Shown: piece after piece, positions 20,546 to 63,294 of the stretch
Layout of the letters: each line of letters opens with the position of its first letter
Numbering within the stretch: position 1 is the stretch's first letter
IMG/VR virus record: IMGVR_UViG_3300028797_000143
Span: 1-64,000 of that record
DNA: 64,000 nucleotides
From: a virus
Taxonomy: Duplodnaviria > Caudoviricetes
Strand: one strand, 5' to 3'
Position numbers and translations under genes: made by a program
Notes under the pieces: model-generated
The model's input: only the letters and a program-made list of their open reading frames with translations
Database searches by the model: none
What the model was told of the DNA's origin: nothing

Positions 20546-20592
20546 TTTTAACTATAATAATTTGTGTATATGGTAGAAAATCAGTACCTTTG
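20546..20592 (+). promoter_or_regulatory. Strong early promoter P1
   Basis: TTTTAACTA-N6-TTTG-N20-TACCTTTG. Confidence 0.85.
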
Positions 20593-21153: not shown

Positions 21154-21327
21154 ATGATGAAAGGTGGTTATACAATGCAAGTCGACATCGAGTTCGAGTT
21201 CGACGAAAGCAAACTAACAGCGTTAGATGTAATGGATCTGTTTGACTACCATGCAAAAGTTAAGGTCAAGCTAAATGACCAAAGAGTGAATATCTTAAAT
21301 GCTCACCTAAAACAAGTAGAACAATAA
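21154..21327 (+). CDS. Small hypothetical protein
   Basis: Hand-translated 57-aa ORF filling the gap. Confidence 0.45.
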   Translation: MMKGGYTMQVDIEFEFDESKLTALDVMDLFDYHAKVKVKLNDQRVNILNAHLKQVEQ

Positions 21328-21329
21328 CT

Positions 21330-21569
21330 ATGGAAAAGAGAAATTGGAAGGCTTTGGCCAGAGAGTTCAGAGAGATGGTAAAGAACACCACCGATGCTAC
21401 AAAGGTTATCGTAAAGGTGGGAGATAATGACATCGCTATATACCCCGCCAAGACGAATCACACGAAAGCATTCTATTGCACGGAAGAGCTGATAGACTTC
21501 TGTAGATGCAAGAGATTGTCAAACCATGTGACAGTAATAGACGGAGTTTGTGTAGCAAAAATCTATTGA
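21330..21569 (+). CDS. Hypothetical protein
   Basis: Operon-spaced ORF. Confidence 0.6.
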   Translation: MEKRNWKALAREFREMVKNTTDATKVIVKVGDNDIAIYPAKTNHTKAFYCTEELIDFCRCKRLSNHVTVIDGVCVAKIY

Positions 21570-27163: not shown

Positions 27164-27340
27164 AGTATTTTAGCGTTTCTTTGGGTTGCATGTTGTTGCA
27201 TAAAATTGTGTTAAAGTTGCTCATTTTCTTGCACTTCCGAATAATGTTGCATACCTTTGCAAAAACTTAATTTATCGGTTGCATTCATCGGTTGCATAAT
27301 CAAGTATGGTCAATCGGTTGCAATTATCGGTTGCAAGAAA

Positions 27341-28816
27341 ATGGTTAAGTGGGAAGAGGTTTATAGGTATGGTGGCGACAGCGTGCGAGGTGCCTTTAGC
27401 GTCCGCGTGGCTGTTGTCCTAAATCGTGCGTCAAGACCTGATGGCGATGGTAGGTATATGGTGGCTGTCAAAGTTACCCAGGGGAATGACAGGAGGTATT
27501 TCATAAATGTCCCCGGAATACGTATGCTCCCAGAGGACTTCGTTGCCATGTGCCGTGAGAGGGACGTGATGAGGGGAAGGTTCAAGAGGTTCGCGGATAT
27601 AGGAGGAAAGGTAACGGGATTCTATGACAGGGTTTGCCATATGGTCGATGACCTCGTTTTCAATGGGTCCTTCGTCTTTGATGATTTCAAGTACAGGTGG
27701 AATGACATAGAGAAGACCAATCTCGTGGAGATAACACCCTATACGTTATGGGAGCAGGTTGCCAAGGAGCGGTCGGCAGGTACGGAGGAGAGTTACCTCA
27801 TAGCCTTAAGGAGGTTCAAGATAGACATGGGTACGAAAATAAGGTTCTGTGACTTCTCCAAGCCTCTCGTGGCGAGGTGGAAGGAGAAGATGCTCAGTGC
27901 AGGTCTCTCGCGTACTACGGCCAATATCTATATCCGTTCCCTACGTGTTGTTCTCAACGATGCCCGAAGGATGGGACAGCTTTCCGATACGCGGGGTGTC
28001 TTCGATGGGCTGTGTATAGGTGGAAGGAACAGCTATAATAGCCGAAAGGAGAAATATCTGTCCGTAGAACAGTGGACGCGCCTATGGCTGTTCTATGAGT
28101 CTAAAGGAGAGGGAAACGAGGTTTATCTGTCATGGAGGGAAGACCAGAAGAAGGACAGGATGGAGGCCTTGGGTATGATGCTCTTCATGTACCTTGCTGA
28201 CGGGATGAACCTGAGAGACGTCGTAAGCCTGAGATATGACGATTACTACTATCAGCATGATCGCAGGCAATTGCATTTCCAGAGGCAGAAGGTCGCGGAG
28301 CGTTCGGGTGCCAAGGTTGTCTTCCCCGTCTTAGAGCCTATACGTATCATCCTCGAAAGACAAGGGGAGAAGGAGGTACGCGGAGGCCTTGTGTTCGGAT
28401 ACCTCAAAGGGAGGGTGAAACTCGACTCACAGACGAAAGAGACCGCCAAGGAGATAAGAAGACTTACGGCCTTGTACAACTCTACGATTGGTGACAGGGT
28501 AGCCCATATCGCCGATGCTATAGGCCTTGACGTACACCCTACCCCCACGTGGTGTAGGCACTCTTTTGCGAGTAACCTCATACAGGCTGGTGTTCCGAAG
28601 GAGTACATCACCGCTTCCATGGCACATAGCAGCGATGATACCACGGATAACTACATAGACATGTATTCCTATGAGCAGATGGTTGACTACAACAGCCGCC
28701 TCCTGGATGACCCTTCGAGGAAGAAGAACAGGGTTCGCGACATCTTCAAGGGCTTCTCCGAAGAGGAGTTGGAAGAGCTGAGGGCACTGATGGGGATGAA
28801 GCAGGATGAAACGTAA
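27341..28816 (+). CDS. int: Tyrosine integrase, Bacteroidales type with arm-binding N-terminal domain
   Basis: RHSFA, SMAHS and catalytic Tyr region; start moved to MVKWEEV, downstream of promoter 27228-27259. Confidence 0.92.
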   Translation: MVKWEEVYRYGGDSVRGAFSVRVAVVLNRASRPDGDGRYMVAVKVTQGNDRRYFINVPGIRMLPEDFVAMCRERDVMRGRFKRFADIGGKVTGFYDRVCHMVDDLVFNGSFVFDDFKYRWNDIEKTNLVEITPYTLWEQVAKERSAGTEESYLIALRRFKIDMGTKIRFCDFSKPLVARWKEKMLSAGLSRTTANIYIRSLRVVLNDARRMGQLSDTRGVFDGLCIGGRNSYNSRKEKYLSVEQWTRLWLFYESKGEGNEVYLSWREDQKKDRMEALGMMLFMYLADGMNLRDVVSLRYDDYYYQHDRRQLHFQRQKVAERSGAKVVFPVLEPIRIILERQGEKEVRGGLVFGYLKGRVKLDSQTKETAKEIRRLTALYNSTIGDRVAHIADAIGLDVHPTPTWCRHSFASNLIQAGVPKEYITASMAHSSDDTTDNYIDMYSYEQMVDYNSRLLDDPSRKKNRVRDIFKGFSEEELEELRALMGMKQDET

Positions 28817-40926: not shown

Positions 40927-40973
40927 TTTTAACTATAATAATTTGCAAATATCGCATAAAACCCGTATCTTTG
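40927..40973 (+). promoter_or_regulatory. Strong early promoter P3
   Basis: TTTTAACTA-N6-TTTG-N20-TATCTTTG. Confidence 0.85.
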
Positions 40974-48246: not shown

Positions 48247-48293
48247 TTTTAACTATAATTATTTGCATATTTCGCGGAAAATTTGTATCTTTG
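48247..48293 (+). promoter_or_regulatory. Strong promoter P4 heading the modification cluster
   Basis: TTTTAACTA-N6-TTTG-N20-TATCTTTG. Confidence 0.85.
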
Positions 48294-48393
48294 CATGAAA
48301 TCAATGGATATTATGCTTAATAATAGTTAAATTAAAGGCATTTTGATGATAAAAAGTTCGATAAATCAATTAAACATGTAATTTTGCAAACAG

Positions 48394-49245
48394 ATGGAAA
48401 ACGAAGGTTATGACATCGACGTTCTTAGAGAGTTTATTGCCCGATGTGAATGGAAGTGGGCGAGGACAATGGAAGAGGTTCCTCATGAATACATCTATCG
48501 CGGAAGGTGTGCTCTCACGGACAAAGAGTTCTATTACTTTTTGAATGCTCAGGTGTATCATGGAATCGAAGAGTGGTGGGGAAAAGGCAAGCGCCCGTAC
48601 CTGCACATCGACGGATACAAGTATTGGACGATGGGAGGCTATGGCCCCGAGAACAGGACGATGAATCGGCAGAAAGAGTTCGATGAGTTCAATGTTTTTG
48701 AGTGGCCGATACCGTGTAACTATTCTCAGCAGGAGATGGAAATCATGGCGCTGACAATCGTCAAGACGTTTGGGAAGAGTGTCTTCGAGGCGGGTATTGC
48801 CAATGGCGACTTCGTGAAGATGTCGGGTATAAAGCCCGAAAACTATTATGGAGTAGACCCGGCCAAGAAAGCGGTAGCCCATTTTAGGATAGGGGCGGCT
48901 AAGTTCTACCAACGATGCTCATGCAAGTCCTTTGAAGAGGCGATAGCCAAATGGAAGAATGGCGAGAGTGTAGTGATAGCGTTATTCGGAACGGCGTCAT
49001 ACTTGATGCATCAATACCTTGAAAGGTTGAACGAGATAGGTGGTGACTATTGCCTGATGTTCTATCGCGAGGGGTATACTCCAGACGAGTATAAGGAGAT
49101 GCATCACATGGGCTATACAAAGAGTGACCTTCATAGAATGTTTCCAAGGGCCAATTTCTATAATCATCAAAAATACATCACAGTATCAAGTCAGAAGTTA
49201 ATATGGCAGCAGCCGATAACGGTTCCAGATTTATTCTCACAATGA
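48394..49245 (+). CDS. Two-domain protein: aromatic N-domain plus degenerate SAM-methyltransferase-like domain
   Basis: C-domain aligns by eye with next gene (YGVDP, IALFG.ASYL, LMFY). Confidence 0.6.
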   Translation: MENEGYDIDVLREFIARCEWKWARTMEEVPHEYIYRGRCALTDKEFYYFLNAQVYHGIEEWWGKGKRPYLHIDGYKYWTMGGYGPENRTMNRQKEFDEFNVFEWPIPCNYSQQEMEIMALTIVKTFGKSVFEAGIANGDFVKMSGIKPENYYGVDPAKKAVAHFRIGAAKFYQRCSCKSFEEAIAKWKNGESVVIALFGTASYLMHQYLERLNEIGGDYCLMFYREGYTPDEYKEMHHMGYTKSDLHRMFPRANFYNHQKYITVSSQKLIWQQPITVPDLFSQ

Positions 49246-49263
49246 TGTGATGGCAATGAAAGA

Positions 49264-49803
49264 ATGAATAATTCGAAATCCCAATACGACGAGATAGCTG
49301 AATGCTACGACACCCTGTTTACAGACGAGTCGAGTATCGCAGAGAACGCAGAGGTAGGAGAAATGCTCCTACCTCTTAGTGGTTCTGTACTTGACATAGG
49401 CTGTGGAACGGGGCTTCTAACCGAGATTGTTGACATTAACCCTGATAAGTATTGTGGCGTAGATCCAAGTGCCAAGATGTTGGGGAAGTTCAAGATGAAG
49501 CACCCGACGTACACCAATTTGGTGTGCGCCCCATATGACGGCTATTGTGTGGATTGTAACAAGTTCGACAATATCATCGCTCTCTTCGGTTCGGCTTCGT
49601 ATTTGGAGAATAAGGCTCTCATCAAGCTTGCCATAACCGATAAGCGCAAGTTTCTTATGTTCTACAAGGATAGCTATCATCCTGTGACCTATGAGATGTG
49701 TGGAGTCGAATTTGAACACAGCAGGCTCTCAAAGAAGATACTGTCTGCTATATTCAACAAGAATAAAGTAGAGGAGTTTAGGAACTATTTAATAGTAAGA
49801 TGA
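49264..49803 (+). CDS. Class I SAM-dependent methyltransferase
   Basis: VLDIGCGTG, GVDPS..M. Confidence 0.85.
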   Translation: MNNSKSQYDEIAECYDTLFTDESSIAENAEVGEMLLPLSGSVLDIGCGTGLLTEIVDINPDKYCGVDPSAKMLGKFKMKHPTYTNLVCAPYDGYCVDCNKFDNIIALFGSASYLENKALIKLAITDKRKFLMFYKDSYHPVTYEMCGVEFEHSRLSKKILSAIFNKNKVEEFRNYLIVR

Positions 49804-49804
49804 T

Positions 49805-50359
49805 ATGGACATACAGTTTATCGTAATGACCACGAGCTTTGGAGGCCGTGACATCTCTCACCTCCATGAAGCCATTCCGAATCTTATAGTTTGCAAGGAC
49901 TATAACCATGATGCAATGGGCAACTTCCTTAATTCCATGAATCTTACGGAAGACCCAGCCATCCACTTGGAGGACGATATAATCCTCTGCGACAACTTCT
50001 ACGAGAAGGTGATGGATGCTGTGAATCAGTACCCGGACTATATCATTAACTTCTTCTCGCTGCGAAAGAAGGACTACGAGCTGCGCAAGCCATATTTCGA
50101 GGCGGGGGCTAAGTTCATGATGAACCAATGCTTCTATATTCCTGCGGGTGTAGGCCCTCAGATTGCGGAGTTCTGGAAGACGTGGCCGCGGAAGGTGGAG
50201 CATCCTACAGGCTATGATATACTGATGGCTGATTGGATGAAGTCCAAGAAGATGAAGTACGTCCAGTGGTTCCCGCATCTTGTGAATCATGTGGAGTGTA
50301 AGTCACTCATCAACCCCAAGCGCAGCAGCAAGCGTTCCGACAAGTTTTTCACGAAATAA
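49805..50359 (+). CDS. GT-A-like glycosyltransferase (paralog 1)
   Basis: HLEDD, FPHLVNH. Confidence 0.65.
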   Translation: MDIQFIVMTTSFGGRDISHLHEAIPNLIVCKDYNHDAMGNFLNSMNLTEDPAIHLEDDIILCDNFYEKVMDAVNQYPDYIINFFSLRKKDYELRKPYFEAGAKFMMNQCFYIPAGVGPQIAEFWKTWPRKVEHPTGYDILMADWMKSKKMKYVQWFPHLVNHVECKSLINPKRSSKRSDKFFTK

Positions 50360-50366
50360 TATAAAT

Positions 50367-51110
50367 ATGGAGAATTACCTATCACAGATTGTAGTGATGA
50401 ACGTCTATCGGCGAGAGAGGGAAGGTAAGTACCTGAAGAAGCTCATAGACATCAGCGCAAAGCCCTATGGCATCCCCGTACAGATCTCGATGGACGACGG
50501 GAGCCTGGGCGTATGGAAGAACTTCTGTCAGACGTTGACCATGGACGGCGGCTTGGAGGATAAGCCCTTCCGAATGGTGGTACAGGATGATGTGTCTTTC
50601 GACCGTAACATCCTGCCGAAGATACAGCATATCTTGAAATATGCTCCGAAAGACAAGATTATCGTGCTCTACAACCCCACGAACACCGATTATCTCGAAT
50701 GTCACAAGCAGGGCAAGCACGTATTGGCCACCGACATCAACTTCTGGCTACAGGCCGCCATTTATCCAAACAGCTTCACGAAGGAGTTTGTCGAGACGAT
50801 GGACGTACAGGCCAAGGAGGAGCGTAACGATGATGACCGCCTCTCTGCCTACCTGCAGGTTCGCAAGGAGAAGCTGTTCGCCATTGTGCCGTCGCTCATC
50901 CAGCATTATGGTGCTTTCCGCAGCAACTTCAAGGTTTCTGGAGCCGTCGGCGGTGTCATTCGTAACAGCTCTACCTACGACAATCAGTTCGACGTGGAGA
51001 GTGTCGATTGGGAGGCTGAGTTTAATAATCCTTTTATCGCCAAGCTGCGCAAGGACTATGCTAAAGTGGTGATGAAGGAGGAGTTCCTTAAAGAATGGGG
51101 GAAGTTCTGA
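50367..51110 (+). CDS. GT-A-like glycosyltransferase (paralog 2)
   Basis: VVQDD, DDDRL, VPSLIQH; ATG 50367. Confidence 0.7.
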   Translation: MENYLSQIVVMNVYRREREGKYLKKLIDISAKPYGIPVQISMDDGSLGVWKNFCQTLTMDGGLEDKPFRMVVQDDVSFDRNILPKIQHILKYAPKDKIIVLYNPTNTDYLECHKQGKHVLATDINFWLQAAIYPNSFTKEFVETMDVQAKEERNDDDRLSAYLQVRKEKLFAIVPSLIQHYGAFRSNFKVSGAVGGVIRNSSTYDNQFDVESVDWEAEFNNPFIAKLRKDYAKVVMKEEFLKEWGKF

Positions 51111-51111
51111 T

Positions 51112-51570
51112 ATGGCTAACGAGAATCTTGCATTGAAGCTTGCCAAGGACGGCATTGAGGTTGAAATGATGAAGCCTCTAAAGATTGACTATGTGAGTGT
51201 GGACGACATCATGCCCAACGATTACAACCCTAACACTCATACAGCAGACTCATTCGACCTACTCATCAAGTCGCTGTTGTATTTTGGTTTCACACAGCCT
51301 ATCGTGGTACACCGCCCGACGATGAAGATTGTGGACGGCGAGAACCGCTATCGTGCGGCATGTGTCATTGGATATAATCTCGTCCCCGTCTGCTTCGTGG
51401 ACTTCGACGATGAGAAACTGAAGTACGCCACCATCATGCACAACATGGCGCGAGGCCATAACAATGACGAGATGATGAAGCGCCTGACAGACTACCTTGA
51501 TACCCATTTCGATTCGAAGACCGACAAGGTGCTGCTTACAGACCGCGACAAATACCGCAAACAGGAATGA
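51112..51570 (+). CDS. ParB/Srx-fold protein (IbrB-like)
   Basis: PNDYNPN...GFTQPIVV...IVDGENR...HNMARG. Confidence 0.85.
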   Translation: MANENLALKLAKDGIEVEMMKPLKIDYVSVDDIMPNDYNPNTHTADSFDLLIKSLLYFGFTQPIVVHRPTMKIVDGENRYRAACVIGYNLVPVCFVDFDDEKLKYATIMHNMARGHNNDEMMKRLTDYLDTHFDSKTDKVLLTDRDKYRKQE

Positions 51571-52265
51571 AGTACAAGTGTGACATCAAGTTTATGGCAG
51601 TGCCGAGCAGAATGCAAAACGTGGTGACGCTTTGCAATCAACTTGGCTTGTCTTATAACGATGTCGCTGTTGACCACGATATGCGCGGTCTGCCATTGCT
51701 TACGAGTCAGAAGGCTTTTTCTTTGCCACGTAAAGATGGAGTCACACATCGCCTCGTGCTACAGGATGACTTGATACTCAATCCCTATCTCATGGAGAGT
51801 ATACAAGCATTGGTCAATCGTTTTCCAGACAATCCAATAGCCCTCTATACTTACAAGCGTGAAGAGCACGACGCGGATTTGAAGCAGGGTGTTTACAAGC
51901 TTCATTTCATCCCCGGCCTCGCTATTATCATGCCGCTAAAGGTTATGGATGGTATTATTGAGGTTTATAAGGACTACCCACTATTTCGTGATGACGATTG
52001 GTTCTACAGCTGGTATTGCAAGCGCAATGACATCAAGTGTTATGGCGTGATACCAAATCTTGTGACCTTAAATTGGGACTTTGAATCCACGTTAGGTAAT
52101 AATGTCCTTAAACGCTATAAGAACAAAATATATACAGACCAGCGCGTAGATATAGCTTCTTTGAAATTGAACGCCGATACTTACGGCGACAAATATATCA
52201 ATCTTACAGACCGAGAATTTAATAGAATAAACGATGATTGTTGTAGACGTAGTAATTCCAACTAA
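51567..52265 (+). CDS. GT-A-like glycosyltransferase (paralog 3)
   Basis: VLQDD, DDWF, IPNLV. Confidence 0.65.
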   Translation: MKYKCDIKFMAVPSRMQNVVTLCNQLGLSYNDVAVDHDMRGLPLLTSQKAFSLPRKDGVTHRLVLQDDLILNPYLMESIQALVNRFPDNPIALYTYKREEHDADLKQGVYKLHFIPGLAIIMPLKVMDGIIEVYKDYPLFRDDDWFYSWYCKRNDIKCYGVIPNLVTLNWDFESTLGNNVLKRYKNKIYTDQRVDIASLKLNADTYGDKYINLTDREFNRINDDCCRRSNSN

Positions 52266-52899
52266 CACGTTGGATGAACAGATTAGAGCCATCACTCAGA
52301 ACTCGATTTACAGCCTGAAAAACAGTGAGACGAGTAATGTGAAGTTCAATGTTGTGGTGTGCGAGCAGAATAAGGATGCAGAGGATTACGACCAAGTAGA
52401 CCTTATGCTTCATTACGATTTCCCCTTCTGCTTCAATAAGGTGCTTAACTATGGTGCCAAGCATTGCTCGAACAAGTATATCATGTTCGTCAATAATGAC
52501 ATCATGTACTGCCGTGGCTTTATTATGCCACTATTGAGCGCCGCCATGATGGGCTATCAGTCACTCTCTCCTACAGATCCGCACAAAGATAAGCCGTGCA
52601 ACGAGCCTTTTGTGGAAGGGTATGGAATCGACCTCGAACTGAAAGGGTGGTTCATAGTCTGCGACCGTCAGATGTTCGACTCTATCGGCGGGTTCGATGA
52701 GAGCGTTGACTTCTATTGGAGCGACAACCTCTACAAGGAGCAGTTGAAGAAAGCACACATCAAACACGTCCGCGTCACCAACTCCTTCGCTGTACACTTT
52801 GGACGCTCTACGCTCCGCAAGCATGACAAGGAGAAACGTATTGAGCTTGCCGATGGACAAGGTGAGAAATTCTTGGAACTGACAGGACACAAAAGATAA
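52234..52899 (+). CDS. Family 2 glycosyltransferase
   Basis: VVIPT...FNKVLNYG...MFVNND...GGFDE..FYW.D. Confidence 0.85.
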   Translation: MIVVDVVIPTNTLDEQIRAITQNSIYSLKNSETSNVKFNVVVCEQNKDAEDYDQVDLMLHYDFPFCFNKVLNYGAKHCSNKYIMFVNNDIMYCRGFIMPLLSAAMMGYQSLSPTDPHKDKPCNEPFVEGYGIDLELKGWFIVCDRQMFDSIGGFDESVDFYWSDNLYKEQLKKAHIKHVRVTNSFAVHFGRSTLRKHDKEKRIELADGQGEKFLELTGHKR

Positions 52900-52903
52900 A
52901 GAT

Positions 52904-54076
52904 ATGATATTTTACGGAGAAAAGAATGTTTACGAAGCCGCACTCGACCGAATCCGATATATTTTCGACGAGTTCTACGGTAAACGTCCTATCATCGTCA
53001 CCATTTCTGGCGGCAAGGACTCTACGGTGACACTTTACCTTGTTCATGAGGTTATGATGGAGCGTGGTATCGAGAAGATACCTGTTCTCTTTCTCGACCA
53101 AGAGGCCGAAGCTCCACAAACCACAGACTACATCAGGGAGATTATGCACCTTCCATGGGTAGAACCATATTGGGTGCAGACCTATTTTAAGGAGTGGAAC
53201 GCCTCGAAGGGTGAATGGTTTAACGTATGGGGGCCTGGCGAGCAGTGGTGTCGTGAGAAAGAACCTAATAACCCCTATGCTGATATGGAACTGAGCACCA
53301 ACGTCTATTTCACAAAGACGCTCAGCTGTGTGCAGTATTCTCTCTTTGGCAAGAGTTTCGTATCCCTTGGCGGTGTGCGCATTGAGGAGTCTCCAGCACG
53401 TCTCTCAGGCCTTACCAACTGCGAGGTCATCGAAGGGACGGGTATCACATGGGGTAAGGGTGGTGGCTACTACAAGAATGGTGAGCCAAAGGCTATGGTA
53501 CTCTATCCGATATGGGATTGGAAGTGTTACGATGTTTGGTATTACATCTTCAGCAACCGAATCCCTTATTGCAAGCTTTACGACTATCTTTTCTCCGAGC
53601 AGCCATTACGTGACTGCCGTGTGAGTTCTCTTATCCACGAGCAAGCTATCAAGAATCTCGAAATCATCCGTCGTATTTCTCCTGAATTTTATGAGCGTTT
53701 ACAACGCCGTGTAAAGAATGTTAATTCGACAGTGCAGGTCTATGCCGAGTTGATACACTATATCAATTGGACTTTCCTTCCTAAGTACTTCAATTCATGG
53801 GAAGAGTACGTGGAATATCTTGCCGACAACCTTGTAGGCGACAAGACAAAGGTGCCAGGCATCAAACGCATGTACCATAATGCCCTTGATAGAGGGCTTG
53901 AAGGTGTAGGAAAGTGGGAGGAAGGCCGCGTCTTTGTGACGCGTCGCATCTCTCAGACAGCTGCCATCTGTATTCTTTCAGAAGATTTTGAGATGAAGCG
54001 CATACAGAATATTCAGCGCACCCTTCACGCTTATTACAACGAGAATTACGAAGCAATTAAAAACGCAAACAAATGA
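52904..54076 (+). CDS. PAPS-reductase-family protein (IbrA/YbdN-like)
   Basis: ISGGKDS, GVRIEES..R, YPIWDW...DVW. Confidence 0.88.
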   Translation: MIFYGEKNVYEAALDRIRYIFDEFYGKRPIIVTISGGKDSTVTLYLVHEVMMERGIEKIPVLFLDQEAEAPQTTDYIREIMHLPWVEPYWVQTYFKEWNASKGEWFNVWGPGEQWCREKEPNNPYADMELSTNVYFTKTLSCVQYSLFGKSFVSLGGVRIEESPARLSGLTNCEVIEGTGITWGKGGGYYKNGEPKAMVLYPIWDWKCYDVWYYIFSNRIPYCKLYDYLFSEQPLRDCRVSSLIHEQAIKNLEIIRRISPEFYERLQRRVKNVNSTVQVYAELIHYINWTFLPKYFNSWEEYVEYLADNLVGDKTKVPGIKRMYHNALDRGLEGVGKWEEGRVFVTRRISQTAAICILSEDFEMKRIQNIQRTLHAYYNENYEAIKNANK

Positions 54077-54732
54077 ATATAAGAGAAGAAATCAAGAAGG
54101 AGTTCGATGCCGCACAAGACAAGCTGGCATACCTGAACGACCTGAGAAAGTACATCAGTACGCTTTCTCCCGAGAATGTGAATCCCGTTGACTGCGTGCT
54201 TTGGGTTCCCAAGGAGCAGGTTGTGGCCAACAACTACAACCCCAACCATGTTGCCGACAAGGAGATGAAGCTGCTGTACACGTCCGTCAGAGAGGATGGC
54301 TATACCATGCCTATTGTGACTATCTGGGATGACAACCTGAAGAAGTACGTCATCATCGACGGATTCCACCGCAACCTCGTCATCCGTAAGTTCCCCGACA
54401 TCGATGCCCGCTGTAAGGGTATGTTACCTATCGTAGTACTCGACAAGGACATCGACCAGCGCATGGCCAGTACCATTCGTCACAACCGCGCCCGTGGCTC
54501 ACACTCCATTGACGGCACGGCGAATATCGTCTTCCAGATGTTGAAGGACGGCAAGAGTGAGCGCGAGATCTGCGAGAACCTTGGCATGGAGCAACGCGAG
54601 TTTGGCAAGCTGATGTTTGTGACGGGCTTTGCCAAAATCTTCAAGAACTATCATTACTCTGCCTGTGTGGAGAAGGTGGTAGACGAGAAACGAGTAGCAC
54701 GCGAAACGAAACAAAAAGAAGCGAAGAAATGA
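54073..54732 (+). CDS. ParB/Srx-fold protein (IbrB/YbdM-like)
   Basis: ANNYNPN...DGYTMPIV...IDGFHR...TIRHNRARGSH. Confidence 0.88.
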   Translation: MNIREEIKKEFDAAQDKLAYLNDLRKYISTLSPENVNPVDCVLWVPKEQVVANNYNPNHVADKEMKLLYTSVREDGYTMPIVTIWDDNLKKYVIIDGFHRNLVIRKFPDIDARCKGMLPIVVLDKDIDQRMASTIRHNRARGSHSIDGTANIVFQMLKDGKSEREICENLGMEQREFGKLMFVTGFAKIFKNYHYSACVEKVVDEKRVARETKQKEAKK

Positions 54733-55403
54733 ATATTCAGACAGTAAAGATTGGGGAGATTTACCCCTACTACAACAACCCTCGAAACAACGCCGACGCG
54801 GTACAGCCCGTTATTGAGAGTTTCAAGAAGTTCGGCTTCATCAAGCCTATCATGGTCGACAAGGACCATATCATCATCTGCGGTCATACACGTTACATCG
54901 CGGCCTTCCAGTGCGGCTGTGAGTATGTGCCTATCATCGTCAGCGATATGCCAGAGGAGCAGGCTAAGCGCTTCCGCATCCTCGACAATAAGATTGCTGA
55001 GAAGTCAGGCTTCGATGAGAACGAGCTGATAGAGGAGCTGAAGAAGATGGAGGCTCCCGAGGAGATGCAAGCATTCTTCTTCGAGGACATCAACCGCATG
55101 ATTAACTTCGACTTCAACCAGTTCCAGAACAACTTCAACGCTGCGGGTGGCGGTTTGCACGACATCACCGATTTCCAATATGAGGAAGGAGGCGGTGAGG
55201 ACTACCAGCCAGCACCGCAAGATACGACTGAATATGAGCCGTCCGAGGAATCTGAGGAAGAAGAGTTCAACACATTTAGTGAAGAAGACCCCGCCAAGGA
55301 CCTCTTCGTGGTACAGATGCGCCCCGATGCCACCAGATTCATGAAGGTGGTATGCCCCTATTGCGGAAACATTGAGGAAATCGACTTAGACATGGAGGAC
55401 TAA
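54729..55403 (+). CDS. ParB N-terminal domain protein with acidic linker and CxxC
   Basis: NNPR...GF..PI.VD...GHTR...RILDNK; CPYC. Confidence 0.85.
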   Translation: MNIQTVKIGEIYPYYNNPRNNADAVQPVIESFKKFGFIKPIMVDKDHIIICGHTRYIAAFQCGCEYVPIIVSDMPEEQAKRFRILDNKIAEKSGFDENELIEELKKMEAPEEMQAFFFEDINRMINFDFNQFQNNFNAAGGGLHDITDFQYEEGGGEDYQPAPQDTTEYEPSEESEEEEFNTFSEEDPAKDLFVVQMRPDATRFMKVVCPYCGNIEEIDLDMED

Positions 55404-55406
55404 ACT

Positions 55407-56018
55407 ATGGCACAAGACATCAAATTAAAGAAGGAAATCGTAGAGGTTGACATCAACCAGATTACCCCCTACGAAGGTTCGCATAAGACAGACGCGAGTA
55501 TCAACCTGCTCATCGAGAGTATCAAGGACTTCGGCGTGAACCAGCCTATCACCGTAGATAAGAACTACGTTGTGGTGACGGGAAATGGCGTTTATAAGGC
55601 CGCAAAGGAGGCGGGGCTGACCAAACTCCCGTGTATCATCCTTGATGACCTCACAGACGAGGAAATCAAGCAATATCGTATTGCGGACGATAAGACACAG
55701 GAGTTCGCCACATGGAACGAGAAGAAACTCCGTCAGGAGCTCTCTTACCTCCAAGACCCGACGTCGATGCAGATGTACTTCGATGAGAGTATCGTCGGTA
55801 TGCTCGGCCTCGATGCGAAGGTGAAGCAGAATCCTATCGTCTCGACACAGCAGACAGAGACAGCCGGTATTGTCAATGCAATGACAAAGGCCGAGAAGGA
55901 CAAGAAGTTCAAGGAGGAACTGAACAACGTCAATGCAAGTATGAACATACAGCCCGCCGAGTACTTTGAGTACCATTGCTCGAAGTGTGGCCGTCTGGTA
56001 AAAGTAAAGGTAAACTGA
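55407..56018 (+). CDS. ParB N-terminal domain protein (degenerate) with CxxC
   Basis: GVNQPITVD..GNG...RIADDK; CSKC. Confidence 0.8.
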   Translation: MAQDIKLKKEIVEVDINQITPYEGSHKTDASINLLIESIKDFGVNQPITVDKNYVVVTGNGVYKAAKEAGLTKLPCIILDDLTDEEIKQYRIADDKTQEFATWNEKKLRQELSYLQDPTSMQMYFDESIVGMLGLDAKVKQNPIVSTQQTETAGIVNAMTKAEKDKKFKEELNNVNASMNIQPAEYFEYHCSKCGRLVKVKVN

Positions 56019-56019
56019 T

Positions 56020-56559
56020 ATGGCAAACGACAACAAAATGGCAGGATTGGTACACTCCATGCCATCTCCTGTAGGTCACCCTCCACGCTTTAAGACGCCG
56101 AAAGCACTATGGGATAAGTTCGTGGAATACTGCGATTGGATTGATGGTAATCCGTGGCAGGAGAAGACCGCATCTAACGTCCTTGACTCTATTGGCGCTG
56201 GCGAAGAACAGAAACAGAAGAACGCTCTTCGTCAGAATGTGGTAGTAACCCAGAGGGCCTATACTCTATATGGCTTCTGCGCCTATGCAGGCATCCATTA
56301 CAAATGGGCCGACTTCCGTAAGAACTATATCGATAAGACGGGGTTTCCACCTGTCATTGAGCAGATTGAGAATGTCATCTGCGCCCAACAGGTGGATGGA
56401 GCTATGATCAATAAGTTCAACTCTAACCTCGTGGCACGCCTTAACGGATTCGCCGATAAGCAATGGATGGAGCTGACAGGTCGCGGTGGCGATGACTTCA
56501 AGTGGCCTAAACTCACAGATGCGGACATAAAGTATCTTAAAGATGTAAACGGTTTATAA
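56020..56559 (+). CDS. terS: Terminase small subunit (P22 gp3-like)
   Basis: G.PPRFKTP..LW...Y..W...P; F.SNLVARLNG; directly before TerL. Confidence 0.8.
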   Translation: MANDNKMAGLVHSMPSPVGHPPRFKTPKALWDKFVEYCDWIDGNPWQEKTASNVLDSIGAGEEQKQKNALRQNVVVTQRAYTLYGFCAYAGIHYKWADFRKNYIDKTGFPPVIEQIENVICAQQVDGAMINKFNSNLVARLNGFADKQWMELTGRGGDDFKWPKLTDADIKYLKDVNGL

Positions 56560-58037
56560 TGGATTTTCAGCAACAGAAACTTATCCATAAGCAACTGTTA
56601 CTGTCATCAACCCTCCGTTTCACGCAAGGGTTCTTCCAGTACATGAATGGTGCTCCTTACATCGTAGGTGAGCACCATATTAAGATATGCCAATATCTTG
56701 ACAAGGTTGTGAAGGGTGAGATTCAAAAGCTGATAATCAACATAGCTCCGCGCTATGGAAAAACGGAGCTTGTATCCAGAATGTTCCCCGCCTACGGGTT
56801 TGCGCTTAATCCAAGGTCGCTTTTCTTACATCTCAGTTATAGCGGTAGCTTGACACTTGATAATTCCGTTGCAACAAAAGACATTATCAAATCGAAGTAC
56901 TTCCAGAATGTGTTTAATGTAGAGTTTGACCGCCGTATAAATTCAGGCTCGAAATGGAATACAACAGTAGGTGGTGGTGAGTATGCTACCTCTATGCTCG
57001 GACAGATTACAGGTTTCGGTGCAGGTCGTGTAGAGCTTGACTACGATAAGGATGAAGATAAGCTGTTTGATGATTTCACCGCACGTTATAACCCGAATGG
57101 CTTCTCAGGGGCGATTATCATCGATGACCCCATCAAACCAGACGAAGCTTTGAGTGACAAGATACGTGAAAAGGTGAACCTCCGCTTCGAGACAACCATC
57201 CGAAACCGTGTCAACTCCCGCAAGACACCTATCATCATCATCATGCAGCGGCTCCATGAGCATGACCTCTGCGGATACCTTCAGGAGATAGAACCTGACG
57301 AGTGGACTGTCCTCTCACTTCCTGCTATCATGACTGATGGACATGGGAATCAGAGACCGCTATGGCCGTTCAAGTTCACCATCCCCGAGTTGATGAAGAT
57401 TAAGAACGCCAACTCCTATGTCTTCGAGACGCAATACATGCAGAACCCCACCCCGCTCGAAGGACTTATGTACCGCCCGTTCAAGACCTACGAGATACTA
57501 CCTCCGCGTCGCTCTGCGAAGTTTATTGGCAATGTTACCGACCCAGCTGATACGGGAGCGGATTGGCTGTGTTCCATCTGCTTCGATGTACACCCGGAAG
57601 GTTACTATGTCACCGATGTCCTCTATACGAAGAAGCCTGCAGAATACACCGAGCAAGCAATGGCGCAGATGTTATGCAAGAACGAGACGGGTGTTTGCTT
57701 CATAGAGTCCAACAATGGAGGACGATTGTTCATGCGTAACGTGGAGAGGATAACCCGTGAGTACGAAAATAGGCAGACGCAGTTCGTGACCTATACTACC
57801 CACATGAACAAACAGGTGAGAATCTTCTCCCGATCCAATGAGGTGTCTAATATGCTCATCTTCCCACAAGGATGGGAACATAGGTGGCCAGAGTTCTATC
57901 GTGACTTGACATCATACCGAAAAGAGGGCGCGATGGCTCATGACGATGCACCTGACTGCGCAACGGCGGTAATTGAGAGATGTGAGAATTGGGGAGGTAC
58001 GGCTACTGATTCGGAGATACTAAGTGATTTCTTATAA
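56559..58037 (+). CDS. terL: Terminase large subunit
   Basis: PRYGKT Walker A, IIDDP, MQR.HEHDL, C-terminal HDDAPD nuclease motif. Confidence 0.92.
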   Translation: MDFQQQKLIHKQLLLSSTLRFTQGFFQYMNGAPYIVGEHHIKICQYLDKVVKGEIQKLIINIAPRYGKTELVSRMFPAYGFALNPRSLFLHLSYSGSLTLDNSVATKDIIKSKYFQNVFNVEFDRRINSGSKWNTTVGGGEYATSMLGQITGFGAGRVELDYDKDEDKLFDDFTARYNPNGFSGAIIIDDPIKPDEALSDKIREKVNLRFETTIRNRVNSRKTPIIIIMQRLHEHDLCGYLQEIEPDEWTVLSLPAIMTDGHGNQRPLWPFKFTIPELMKIKNANSYVFETQYMQNPTPLEGLMYRPFKTYEILPPRRSAKFIGNVTDPADTGADWLCSICFDVHPEGYYVTDVLYTKKPAEYTEQAMAQMLCKNETGVCFIESNNGGRLFMRNVERITREYENRQTQFVTYTTHMNKQVRIFSRSNEVSNMLIFPQGWEHRWPEFYRDLTSYRKEGAMAHDDAPDCATAVIERCENWGGTATDSEILSDFL

Positions 58038-58038
58038 T

Positions 58039-58677
58039 ATGGAAAAGCTGTCAGTTATTACTATAAACCTCAACAACAAGGAAGGACTTAAGAAGACTAT
58101 AGATAGCGTCATCAAACAGACTTGTTTCAGTCTTCTGGAGTTTATTGTAATCGATGGAGAGAGCACAGATGGAAGCGTAGACGTTATCCGAGAAAACGAA
58201 AGATACTTGAAGTATTGGGTGTCAGAGAAGGATGGTGGAATCTACGATGCCATGAATAAAGGTATACGCATGGCCAACGGGGAATTCTGCCTATTTCTTA
58301 ACAGCGGAGACACATTCCATTCAGAATGCTCCTTTGGCCTATCTATACCATACCTCAACAAAGACATCGTTTATGGCAATATGATAATAGATGGAAAGGT
58401 TGCTACATACCCAGATAGATTAACTAACGGCTATTTCAGATATAACACTCTTCCACACCAAGCTTCGTTTATTCGTACTGCCCTATTGAAGAAGAGAGGA
58501 TATGACACTTCTTATAGAGTTATATCTGATTGGATAAGGTTCAGAGAACTGATAATGGTAGGATGCTCATATAGGCACATAGATGTTCTTGTCAGCGACT
58601 TCGAGCCAGGAGGTATTAGCGCCGATTACAACAAGATAAAGACGGAGCGAAAGAGATATTTGGAATCTATTCAATGA
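58039..58677 (+). CDS. Family 2 glycosyltransferase (host LPS/capsule type)
   Basis: SVITIN.NN..GL..TI.SV..Q...IDG.STDGS...GIYDAMNKG...FLNSGD. Confidence 0.9.
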   Translation: MEKLSVITINLNNKEGLKKTIDSVIKQTCFSLLEFIVIDGESTDGSVDVIRENERYLKYWVSEKDGGIYDAMNKGIRMANGEFCLFLNSGDTFHSECSFGLSIPYLNKDIVYGNMIIDGKVATYPDRLTNGYFRYNTLPHQASFIRTALLKKRGYDTSYRVISDWIRFRELIMVGCSYRHIDVLVSDFEPGGISADYNKIKTERKRYLESIQ

Positions 58678-58686
58678 TTTTAGTAT

Positions 58687-58733
58687 TTTTAACTATAAAT
58701 ATTTGCACAATTCATCAAAAACCCGTACCTTTG
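58687..58733 (+). promoter_or_regulatory. Strong early promoter P5
   Basis: TTTTAACTA-N6-TTTG-N20-TACCTTTG. Confidence 0.85.
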
Positions 58734-60501: not shown

Positions 60502-60548
60502 TTTTAACTATTATTCTTTGCGTATCTCACTGAACTTCAGTATCTTTG
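60502..60548 (+). promoter_or_regulatory. Strong early promoter P6
   Basis: TTTTAACTA-N6-TTTG-N20-TATCTTTG. Confidence 0.85.
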
Positions 60549-62778: not shown

Positions 62779-63294
62779 ATGTTACGGTTTGCCTTATTGA
62801 ACTACACTCCCAAGCGGTATATGAGACGTGCCAGCTTCGAGGCGCAGGAGTCAAATCGTTACATCATTGACTTCAAGAACGGACGCAAGTATGCCATCCG
62901 AATCATAACGGATATGGTTTGTGAGACGCTATCGAAGACGAACATGGATAACACCATTATCGTGAACATCCCTGCAAGCTGTGAGAGGACAACAGAGCGG
63001 AGGTACAGGACGTTCATGAATGATGTGTGTGACAGGTGCGGGGCTGTGAATGGCTTCGGGCATGTCCATGTCTTTGGGAAGAGGGAGAAGTCACATATCA
63101 TACGTCACCACAGCCACCTTGACAATGTGAGGATAGACAATGACTTCTTCCGTGGTCGCAGGGTGATAGTGGTTGATGACATCTGTACCACAGGACAGAC
63201 ATCAAATAGTTTCATAGAACGCCTGAAGATGGCAGGTGCCGATGTTCGGATGGCGTTATTCATAGCAAAGACAAAGAAATTCAAAACCAATTAA
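62779..63294 (+). CDS. Phosphoribosyltransferase-fold protein (ComF-like)
   Basis: VIVVDDICTTGQT PRPP-binding motif. Confidence 0.85.
   Translation: MLRFALLNYTPKRYMRRASFEAQESNRYIIDFKNGRKYAIRIITDMVCETLSKTNMDNTIIVNIPASCERTTERRYRTFMNDVCDRCGAVNGFGHVHVFGKREKSHIIRHHSHLDNVRIDNDFFRGRRVIVVDDICTTGQTSNSFIERLKMAGADVRMALFIAKTKKFKTN

What the first reader, a model, noticed from the sequence alone, without database searches (positions are those of the whole stretch)
48247..58677. 10-kb modification island fused to the packaging genes
Seen: one promoter (P4) heads 14 nearly gapless genes: 2 methyltransferase-like, 4 glycosyltransferases, 4 ParB/Srx-fold, 1 PAPS-reductase family, TerS, TerL, then a fifth GT. 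No thymidylate-synthase-like, hydroxymethylase or TET/JBP gene is visible in the window. Established: ParB/PAPS-reductase/GT neighbourhoods beside terminases are associated with predicted DNA modification, and some mycobacteriophages glycosylate their virions with GTs encoded near packaging genes. Inference: an uncharacterised pathway building a methylated or otherwise decorated glycan on DNA or capsid, coupled to packaging.
Basis: partly seen in the sequence, partly recalled or inferred. Interest (0 to 1): 0.85.

Follow-up and report, generated by a model that had tools for sequence, protein, structure and literature searches.

The report
Phage IbrA/ParB glycan-modification cassette before terminase
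A temperate gut Bacteroidota-type phage carries, in one operon with its DNA-packaging genes, an unusually large version of a conserved but never tested enzyme cassette (an ATP-using IbrA-like enzyme, four ParB-like proteins, five sugar transferases, two methyltransferases) that most likely decorates phage DNA, or possibly the virion, with a methylated glycan.

Summary
One Bacteroidota-type promoter (48262-48293) heads 14 tightly packed genes, and the next such promoter is at 58702. All 14 gene assignments were confirmed. No thymidylate-synthase-like, TET/JBP, TGT or DNA-methylase gene exists anywhere in the 88.9-kb genome.

The island is a functional unit, not a chance juxtaposition.
- The core sugar transferase (g4) defines a family absent from Pfam, with 165 clusters. 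In all 8 informative metagenomic contexts it sits beside an IbrA-like PAPS-reductase/DUF3440 gene and ParB genes. These contexts span three unrelated terminase types.
- One relative fuses two such transferases to a ParB.
- The cultured Microbacterium phage Hendrix has the same cassette in the same order.

The target is unproven. I favour post-replicative DNA modification (about 0.5). The ParB domains are of the type fused to DNA methylases. The g1 methyltransferase carries an N-terminal domain that recurs in bacterial loci beside GmrSD-type restriction genes and fused to a nuclease.

The main rival is virion glycosylation (about 0.25). The transferase family is homologous to Corndog gp38, which is needed for capsid glycosylation.

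The scan noted this cassette type before on other DNA (e1-3416728, e1-4042049).

The parts
48248..48293 (+). Operon promoter (TTTG-N20-TATCTTTG, 48262-48293), overlapped by a shared upstream element TTTAACTATAAWWATTTG (48248-48267)
   Evidence: The upstream element recurs at 5 promoters in the window (expected 0.01).
48394..49245 (+). g1: two-domain methyltransferase. It has a mobile N-terminal domain (about residues 1-95; invariant PHEY, KYWTMG, NR) and a class I SAM methyltransferase domain paralogous to g2.
   Evidence: The N-domain recurs at 50-57% identity fused to a PDDEXK_4 nuclease and beside GmrSD_N genes.
49264..49803 (+). g2: class I SAM methyltransferase of small-molecule type, with motif I VLDIGCGTG
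49805..50359 (+). g3: small GT-A glycosyltransferase, a paralogue of g4. Variable among relatives.
   Evidence: phrog_854 at 2e-7; hhalign against the g4 profile prob 97.2%; 75% identical copy in L009
50367..51110 (+). g4: core GT-A glycosyltransferase of the cassette. Motifs R16, (Q/H)DD74-75, ED156, QH180. The ORF opens at 50289, but the likely start is the Met at 50367.
   Evidence: The family has 165 representative clusters and no Pfam model.
51112..51570 (+). g5: short ParB_N (ParB-CTPase fold) protein with a GENRYRA motif
   Evidence: Pfam at 4.7e-12; phrog_620/498 at 1e-23; 73-82% identical in relatives
51567..52265 (+). g6: GT-A glycosyltransferase, a paralogue of g4, sitting in the variable slot
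   Evidence: hhalign prob 98.8%; the Atlas model matches a GT25-like viral cluster at TM 0.74; absent at this position in L003-L009
52234..52899 (+). g7: GT2-like glycosyltransferase from a different family than g4, sitting in the variable slot
   Evidence: phrog_22332 at 1.2e-19; unrelated to the g4 profile; absent in relatives
52904..54076 (+). g8: IbrA-like PP-loop ATP pyrophosphatase (PAPS_reduct plus DUF3440, SGGKDS motif)
   Evidence: homologues in 218 phage records, some annotated IbrA
54073..54732 (+). g9: IbrB-like ParB/Srx-fold partner of g8, with a DGFHR motif. It is always the gene next to the PAPS-reductase gene.
   Evidence: phrog_2159 at 1e-64; 45-50% identical to the ParB beside the PAPS reductase in phages Hendrix and FCL-2
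54729..55403 (+). g10: ParB_N protein with an acidic linker and a C-terminal CxxC
   Evidence: The ParB part of the GT-GT-ParB fusion P0107 is 38% identical.
55407..56018 (+). g11: ParB_N paralogue of g10 with a degenerate GxxR motif (TGNGVY) and a C-terminal CxxC
56020..56559 (+). g12: terminase small subunit (gp3-type)
   Evidence: Pfam GP3_package at 2.3e-16; phrog_606 at 1e-25
56559..58037 (+). g13: terminase large subunit
   Evidence: phrog_38 at 3e-91; 49% identical to the TerL of Bacteroides fragilis phages
58024..58677 (+). g14: soluble GT2 glycosyltransferase, WcaE-like. A lineage-specific addition.
   Evidence: Pfam at 3.3e-17; TIGR04009 at 1.3e-39, below its cut-off; absent after TerL in relatives

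Best explanation
The island is an expanded version of a widespread phage cassette that chemically modifies phage DNA after replication, at about the time of packaging.

Shown:
- A fixed core accompanies the cassette: an IbrA-like PP-loop ATP pyrophosphatase (g8), its IbrB-like ParB/Srx partner (g9), and further ParB-CTPase-fold proteins that lack a DNA-binding HTH (g5, g10, g11).
- A dedicated GT-A transferase family (g4, with paralogues g3 and g6) and a two-domain methyltransferase (g1) travel with this core across phage lineages.
- A variable slot holds further tailoring enzymes. Here these are the transferases g6, g7 and g14. In relatives they are acetyl- or methyltransferases or a decarboxylase.
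- The whole set is transcribed with TerS and TerL.

Inferred:
- g8 adenylates a position on DNA to create the acceptor, taking the place of the hydroxymethyl-pyrimidine step that this genome lacks.
- The ParB-like proteins open or present double-stranded DNA and recruit the enzymes.
- The glycosyltransferases build a mono- to oligosaccharide, and g1 and g2 methylate it.
- The g1 N-terminal domain reads the DNA or the mark.
- The modification is sparse or site-specific rather than genome-wide.
For: 1. The GT is tied to the core. In all 8 informative contexts of g4-family members, a PAPS_reduct(+DUF3440) gene lies within a few genes, and ParB_N genes appear wherever the contig reaches (window; L003-6; L007; L009; L011; L016/17; L020; L021; L022). 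These contexts include three unrelated TerL types.
2. P0107 is a single 716-aa protein made of GT, GT and a g10-like ParB.
3. The lytic Microbacterium phage Hendrix has the same order: GT, GT, g1-like MT, acyltransferase, PAPS reductase, three ParB genes, then TerL and a ligase. Its TerL is only 25% identical.
4. Several points favour DNA as the target.
- The ParB_N domains match the ParB part of ParB-DNA-methylase fusions (phrog_498 at 1e-23 to 1e-29; PADLOC MTase_II).
- A phage ParB has been shown to activate a thymine dioxygenase on dsDNA, and GTs, ParBs, terminases and O-methyltransferases co-occur in such DNA-hypermodification clusters (PMC13229309; bioRxiv 10.1101/2023.12.21.572611).
- DpdB and DndB are ParB-like components of DNA-modification systems (PMC12839542).
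- The PP-loop region of g8 is nearest to BrxP, DndC and SspD.
5. The g1 N-domain recurs at 50-57% identity in bacterial loci beside GmrSD_N/GmrSD_C, HIRAN and WYL genes, and is fused to a PDDEXK_4 nuclease.
6. The phage has no DNA polymerase among the genes I annotated, and no enzyme that modifies nucleotides before replication. Any DNA mark would therefore have to be post-replicative.
Against: - No enzyme known to make a glycosyl acceptor on DNA is present: no ThyS-like, 5mYOX/TET or C5-MT gene. No PP-loop enzyme has been shown to prime DNA for glycosylation.
- The GT-A family is homologous to Corndog gp38 (prob 97.5%, E 7e-12). PMC12363180 reports gp38 as essential for capsid glycosylation.
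- The closest solved folds to g4 are protein and glycan transferases: Mimivirus R655/R699, GnT-I, POMGnT1, GLT25D1.
- g1 and g2 resemble small-molecule and sugar-nucleotide methyltransferases, not DNA methylases.
- The GTs are not of the TET-associated family PF20691.
- The genome strongly avoids GATC (63 observed, 368 expected), CTAG (1 observed, 155 expected) and CCGG (51 observed, 198 expected). Its DNA is therefore not broadly shielded from restriction.
- The major head protein has a Ser/Thr-rich C-terminal linker and extension that could accept a glycan.
Confidence: 0.5

Rival explanations
1. Virion protein glycosylation. The GT-A enzymes and methyltransferases build a methylated O-glycan on the capsid or tail proteins, as in mycobacteriophages Corndog and Che8. 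The glycan would shield the particle or alter its surface. The ParB and IbrA proteins would then serve another step, or act on proteins.
For: - Corndog gp38 is homologous to the g4 family.
- Corndog also has a methyltransferase and three GTs in one block.
- The closest solved folds are protein O-glycosyltransferases.
- The major head protein (genome 75052-76617) has a Ser/Thr-rich linker (43% S/T over 30 residues) and a C-terminal extension.
- The island proteins are all soluble.
- The cassette also occurs in a strictly lytic phage.
Against: - This reading does not explain the obligate link of the GT family to ParB and PAPS-reductase genes, or the GT-GT-ParB fusion.
- Corndog's cluster sits between the portal and major head genes, with no PAPS-reductase or ParB gene nearby. 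Here the portal is 12 kb away on the other strand.
- Corndog gp35 (MT) and gp37 (GT) are not related to the island proteins.
- The g1 N-domain occurs in DNA-conflict contexts.
Confidence: 0.25
2. Two unrelated modules share one operon. The IbrA/IbrB-ParB genes are a packaging or late-gene control accessory. [quoted passage not shown] The GT and MT genes would be independent accessory genes, for example altering a host glycan.
For: - The PAPS-reductase/ParB pair occurs alone, without GTs, between TerL and the portal in Flavobacterium phage FCL-2 and in many other phages.
- g6, g7 and g14 are not conserved.
- g14 resembles a colanic-acid transferase.
Against: - g4-family GTs were found beside a PAPS-reductase gene in 8 of 8 informative contexts despite gene-order changes and different terminases. 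One is fused to a ParB.
- The same set and order occur in an actinophage.
- No island protein has a membrane segment.
- The cassette is present in a lytic phage, which argues against lysogenic conversion of the host surface.
Confidence: 0.1
3. A small-molecule pathway. The ParB/Srx-fold proteins act as kinases or NTPases and g8 as an adenylating enzyme on a nucleotide or sugar metabolite. The GT, MT and acyl-transferases then tailor that metabolite, for example to counter a host defence signal or to deplete a host sugar nucleotide.
For: - Srx and SerK are small-substrate kinases of this fold, and there are weak SerK hits for g5 and g9.
- The methyltransferase folds resemble natural-product and sugar-nucleotide methyltransferases such as TcaB9, KijD1 and MtmC.
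- Relatives carry TylF-like O-methyltransferases, GNATs and a pyruvoyl decarboxylase.
Against: - The constant position directly upstream of TerS and TerL is not explained.
- The ParB domains are of the type fused to DNA methylases.
- The g1 N-domain is fused to a nuclease and sits beside GmrSD-type genes.
Confidence: 0.08

Closest known systems
IbrA/IbrB of E. coli (and the phage genes annotated IbrA or PAPS reductase, with a ParB-like neighbour)
   Same: g8 has the PAPS_reduct plus DUF3440 architecture and an intact PP-loop. g9 is the adjacent ParB/Srx-fold partner. The pair sits by the packaging genes, as in Flavobacterium phage FCL-2. Depositors annotate homologues as IbrA.
   Different: Here the pair is embedded in a 14-gene operon with three extra ParB proteins, five GTs and two methyltransferases. 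The biochemical function of IbrA/IbrB is itself unknown. Their description as co-activators of prophage genes comes from PMC4490671 and from my own knowledge.
Microbacterium phage Hendrix gp154-158 plus gp1-5 (uncharacterised)
   Same: The content and order are the same: GT (g3-like), GT (g4 family), g1-like two-domain MT, tailoring acyltransferase, PAPS reductase, g9-like ParB, two g10/g11-like ParBs, TerS position, TerL, and a DNA ligase downstream. In both phages the terminase lies far from the portal (PMC7302621).
   Different: Hendrix is a lytic actinophage with 66% GC. It has an acyltransferase instead of extra GTs and no g2, g5, g6, g7 or g14 equivalents. Its TerL is only 25% identical.
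Phage post-replicative DNA hypermodification clusters built on 5mYOX (TET/JBP-like) with ParB activators and GTs (Pyle et al. 2023 bioRxiv; O'Toole et al. 2026 PNAS)
   Same: Both have ParB-CTPase-fold proteins without an HTH, one or more GTs, O-methyltransferase-type tailoring enzymes, and frequent adjacency to the terminase. Both work in phages that use the host nucleotide pool.
   Different: There is no 5mYOX, ThyS or C5-MT gene anywhere in this genome, and the GTs are not TAGT/JGT-like. An IbrA-like PP-loop enzyme occupies the place of the priming enzyme.
Mycobacteriophage virion glycosylation genes (Corndog gp35-38, Che8 gp110)
   Same: A GT-A enzyme homologous to the g4 family (gp38) sits in a block with further GTs and a methyltransferase.
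   Different: Corndog's block lies inside the head-assembly module and has no PAPS-reductase or ParB partner. Its methyltransferase and its other GTs are unrelated to the island's.
PAPS-reductase-family enzymes of DNA phosphorothioation systems (DndC, SspD, BrxP) with the ParB-like DndB
   Same: Both pair a PP-loop enzyme with a ParB-superfamily protein. g9 carries a DGFHR motif reminiscent of the DGQHR motif of DndB. The best defence-library hits of g8 are BrxP, DndC and SspD.
   Different: Similarity is limited to the roughly 70-100-residue PP-loop region. The DndC equivalog scores 30 bits against a cut-off of 290. None of the 14 island proteins is a cysteine desulfurase, DndD or DndE.

Membership tests
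IbrA/IbrB-type pair | PAPS_reduct PP-loop domain followed by DUF3440 in one protein | tested here: met
   g8: PF01507 at 2e-16 and PF11922 at 28 bits, over the cut-off. The SGGKDS motif is seen in the sequence. The same search finds DUF3440 in the E. coli control genome.
IbrA/IbrB-type pair | Adjacent ParB/Srx-fold partner gene | tested here: met
   g9 overlaps g8 by 4 nt and hits phrog_2159 at 1e-64. The adjacency is conserved in L007, L009, L011, L016, L020, FCL-2 and Hendrix.
IbrA/IbrB-type pair | Activates prophage gene expression | not testable with these tools
   This needs genetics. It is known only for the E. coli ECOR-9 pair.
5mYOX/ThyS-dependent phage DNA glycosylation cluster | An enzyme that makes 5-hydroxymethyl-pyrimidine (ThyS homologue or TET/JBP-like dioxygenase) | tested here: not met
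   PF00303 and PF12851 give no hit at E<=1 in the whole genome. There is only a 15-bit 2OG-FeII_Oxy_5 fragment, in a 79-aa ORF.
5mYOX/ThyS-dependent phage DNA glycosylation cluster | GT of the TET-associated/JGT-like GT-A family | tested here: not met
   PF20691 gives no hit at E<=1. The g4 family has no Pfam model.
5mYOX/ThyS-dependent phage DNA glycosylation cluster | ParB-like partner without an HTH, next to GTs and often a terminase | tested here: met
   The canonical ParB model TIGR00180 scores below its cut-off.
Mycobacteriophage virion glycosylation cassette | GT homologous to Corndog gp38 / Che8 gp110 | tested here: met
   hhalign of the g4 profile against Corndog gp38: prob 97.5%, E 6.9e-12
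Mycobacteriophage virion glycosylation cassette | Location inside the head-assembly module (portal to major head protein) | tested here: not met
   The portal is at genome 70042-71469 on the - strand and the major head gene at 75052-76617. Both lie 12-17 kb from the island.
Mycobacteriophage virion glycosylation cassette | Glycosylated capsid or tail proteins | not testable with these tools
   This needs virion glycoproteomics.
Dnd/Ssp DNA phosphorothioation | DndC/SspD orthologue | tested here: not met
   TIGR03183 scores 30.5 bits against a cut-off of 290. The PADLOC DndC and SspD hits cover only residues 14-82.
Dnd/Ssp DNA phosphorothioation | Cysteine desulfurase, DndD/SspC ATPase, DndE | tested here: inconclusive
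   None of the 14 island proteins matches these. The rest of the genome was not searched for them.
Canonical ParABS partition system | ParB with an HTH DNA-binding domain that matches the partition-protein model | tested here: not met
   TIGR00180 scores 44 bits (g5) and 13 bits (g9) against a cut-off of 58. The proteins are 152-224 aa, with only the N-terminal domain matched.

The most novel reading that the evidence does not exclude
This is a second route to glycosylated phage DNA that needs no hydroxymethyl-pyrimidine. An IbrA-like PP-loop enzyme, helped by ParB-fold proteins, activates a DNA position by adenylation. A dedicated GT-A family then attaches a sugar chain, which is methylated. 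The N-terminal domain of g1 is a reader of this mark, and Bacteroidales have captured it for modification-dependent restriction (GmrSD-linked loci).
Probability: 0.3. Interest if true: 0.88.

Novelty: new variant of a known kind. Interest (0 to 1): 0.7.

Why it matters
IbrA-like 'PAPS reductases' and ParB-like genes next to terminases are among the most common unexplained genes in phage genomes. The PAPS-reductase genes are routinely misread as sulfur-metabolism genes (for example PMC12323421).

This window holds the richest version I found. It also links several things for the first time in this analysis:
- a dedicated glycosyltransferase family;
- a GT-ParB fusion;
- a mobile domain shared with restriction-type loci;
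- an identical cassette in a cultured, easily grown actinophage.

The last point makes the function directly testable. If the target is DNA, it would reveal new chemistry for DNA hypermodification, and a matching host countermeasure, in gut Bacteroidota phages. If the target is the virion, it would extend phage glycosylation beyond actinophages and give the IbrA/ParB pair an unexpected role.

Tried and rejected
- Nucleotide search of the island against 50,697 phage records found no match.
- tblastn of g4 against the same records found no match at E<=1e-3. Profile comparison was needed to see the Hendrix and Corndog relatives.
- A search for longer fusion proteins of g4 found none. This is weak evidence.
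- Complex prediction for g10 with g4 was not available.
- The Atlas fold library was not available.
- PDB sequence searches gave nothing useful for g4, g8 and g9, and only canonical ParB N-domains for g10.
- Three papers could not be read because they are not held: Iyer et al. 2013, Maindola et al. 2014 and Freeman et al. 2023.
- Rejected: lysogenic conversion of the host surface. No island protein has a membrane segment, and the cassette occurs in a lytic phage.
- Rejected: a true Dnd system. The DndC model scores far below its cut-off.
- Rejected: a plasmid-type partition function. The ParB proteins have no HTH and score below the partition-model cut-off.

Full report
**What is there.** The window is the first 64 kb of an 88,861-bp viral record that CheckV rates as complete. 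The phage is temperate: it has a tyrosine integrase at 27257-28816. It uses Bacteroidota-type promoters. Its TerL is closest, at 49% identity, to that of Bacteroides fragilis phages.

The promoter at 48262-48293 and the next one at 58702-58733 bracket 14 co-directional genes. Gaps between them run from -32 to +18 nt, and no convincing internal terminator is present.
- two methyltransferases (g1, g2);
- three paralogous small GT-A transferases (g3, g4, g6) and two GT2-type transferases (g7, g14);
- four ParB_N proteins (g5, g9, g10, g11);
- one PAPS_reduct plus DUF3440 protein with an intact SGGKDS PP-loop (g8);
- TerS and TerL.

These assignments rest. The real start of g4 is probably the Met at 50367. 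Six-frame family searches of the whole genome found no thymidylate-synthase-like, TET/JBP, TGT, C5 or N6/N4 DNA-methylase, or TET-associated GT gene.

**Is it one system?** Yes, as far as comparative genomics can show. Close relatives (IMG/VR loci L003-L006; gut contigs L007 and L009) keep this order: MT, MT, (GT), GT-g4, ParB, a variable slot, PAPS reductase, three ParB genes, TerS, TerL and later a ligase. They lack g6, g7 and g14. Their variable slot holds a methyltransferase-like or GNAT-like gene instead.

The g4 family has 165 representative clusters in 1.84 billion proteins and no Pfam model. I sampled distant members. Every contig long enough to judge carries a PAPS_reduct/DUF3440 gene within a few genes, and ParB_N genes where the contig reaches. 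This holds although gene order differs and the terminases are of unrelated types: Terminase_6 in L011 and Terminase_3 in L016/L017. These relatives add TylF-like and CCoAOMT-like O-methyltransferases, GNATs and a pyruvoyl-dependent decarboxylase.

In L020 one 716-aa protein fuses two g4-like domains to a g10-like ParB with the same C-terminal CxxC.

The cultured, lytic, circularly permuted Microbacterium phage Hendrix has the same cassette across the ends of its record. The order is gp154 (g3-like GT), gp155 (g4 family, prob 98.2%), gp156 (g1-like two-domain MT, prob 97.1%), gp157 acyltransferase, gp158 PAPS reductase, gp1 (g9-like ParB, 45% identical), gp2 and gp3 (g10/g11-like), gp4, gp5 TerL, and gp10 ligase. 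Its terminase, like this phage's, lies far from the portal (PMC7302621).

The IbrA-like/ParB pair also occurs alone, for example between TerL and the portal in Flavobacterium phage FCL-2. Homologues of g8 are found in 218 phage records, some annotated IbrA. The Bacteroides fragilis phages with the closest TerL showed no ParB, PAPS-reductase or GT gene in the 16 kb around TerL. I read this as the cassette not being part of the packaging machine.

**What does it modify?** This is inference. Four points favour DNA:
- The ParB_N domains are the type found as the N-terminal module of phage DNA methylases.
- Phage ParB-like proteins without an HTH have been shown to activate a thymine dioxygenase on double-stranded DNA. 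GTs, ParBs, terminases and O-methyltransferases are the commonest neighbours in such clusters (PMC13229309; bioRxiv 10.1101/2023.12.21.572611).
- DpdB and DndB are ParB-like parts of DNA-modification systems (PMC12839542).
- The N-terminal 95 residues of g1 form a highly conserved mobile domain. At 50-57% identity it recurs in three independent bacterial loci beside GmrSD_N/GmrSD_C, HIRAN and WYL genes, and once fused to a PD-(D/E)XK nuclease. That is the company expected of a DNA or modified-DNA reader.

Four points count against DNA:
- The g4 family is homologous to Corndog gp38. PMC12363180 reports gp38 as essential for capsid glycosylation.
- The nearest solved folds to g4 are protein and glycan transferases.
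- The methyltransferases look like small-molecule or sugar-nucleotide enzymes.
- The major head protein has a Ser/Thr-rich C-terminal extension.

The genome also avoids GATC, CTAG and CCGG very strongly. Any DNA mark is therefore unlikely to give blanket protection from restriction. The avoidance might instead reflect the host's composition, because the phage is temperate.

**Mechanism proposed.** g8 uses ATP to adenylate a DNA position, with g9 as its partner. The extra ParB-fold proteins present or open duplex DNA and hold the transferases there. The GT-A enzymes add sugars, and g1 and g2 methylate them. The product is made on replicated concatemers as TerS and TerL are produced. Only the gene content, the linkage and the fusion are shown. 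Every chemical step is inferred.

**Comparison and novelty.** The core is a member of the IbrA/IbrB type (architecture and adjacency tested and met), whose biochemistry is unknown. The island works like the ParB-assisted 5mYOX/GT hypermodification clusters, but it is not a member of them because it lacks the defining dioxygenase or ThyS and the TAGT-type GT. It shares one GT family with the mycobacteriophage virion-glycosylation genes, but not their location or their other genes. It is not a Dnd system.

I class it as a new variant of a known kind. Earlier notes of this scan described the same cassette type on other genomes (e1-3416728, e1-4042049). I treated them as leads only.

**Limits.** The complex prediction and the Atlas fold library were unavailable. 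Three key papers are not held.

Noticed in passing
window 20547-20566, 40928-40947, 48248-48267, 58688-58707, 60503-60522 (+ strand): Five promoters share an extended element, TTTAACTATAAWWATTTG, that overlaps the -33 TTTG (5 matches with up to 3 mismatches; 0.01 expected). The island promoter therefore belongs to a small co-regulated set, possibly with a common activator site.
   Followed up: partly
whole genome (G000, 88,861 bp): Short palindromes are avoided to an extreme degree: CTAG 1 observed against 155 expected, GATC 63 against 368, CCGG 51 against 198, CTCGAG 0 against 21, GAATTC 2 against 15.
   Followed up: partly
L023 3009-4037, L032 2370-3839, L033 7001-7834 (bacterial metagenome contigs): The g1 N-terminal domain recurs in bacterial loci with HIRAN, WYL, PD-(D/E)XK and paired GmrSD_N/GmrSD_C genes. 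This looks like an undescribed modification-dependent defence locus that shares a domain with a phage methyltransferase.
   Followed up: partly
genome 75052-76617 (L014 11052-12617, +): The major head protein is 521 aa long. It has a Ser/Thr-rich linker near residues 450-480 and a beta-rich C-terminal extension resembling an Ig/BACON-type display domain.
   Followed up: no
window 56020-58037 and genome 67689-71469 (- strand): TerS and TerL are separated from the portal and head-morphogenesis genes by about 12 kb. That stretch holds a DNA ligase, a regulator and an anti-repressor, and the portal is on the opposite strand. Microbacterium phage Hendrix shows the same oddity, with 40 ORFs between its terminase and portal.
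   Followed up: partly
window 55340-55403 and 55960-56018; P0107 C-terminus: g10, g11 and the ParB part of the fusion protein each end in a single conserved CxxC(G) after an acidic linker. Two such tails could form an intermolecular zinc site in a dimer.
   Followed up: no
window 21291-21464 (+): A sub-threshold 2OG-FeII_Oxy_5 match (E 0.002, 15 bits) falls in an ORF of only 79-96 aa. It is too short for a dioxygenase and is probably chance.
   Followed up: no
window 62779-63294 (+): A small protein carries a phosphoribosyltransferase domain (Pribosyltran at 2.6e-7). It lies downstream of the ligase region, and its role is unknown.
   Followed up: no
L011 1826-2494 (+): In a distant relative of the cassette, a pyruvoyl-dependent arginine decarboxylase homologue sits directly upstream of the PAPS-reductase gene. 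This hints at amine- or polyamine-type tailoring.
   Followed up: no
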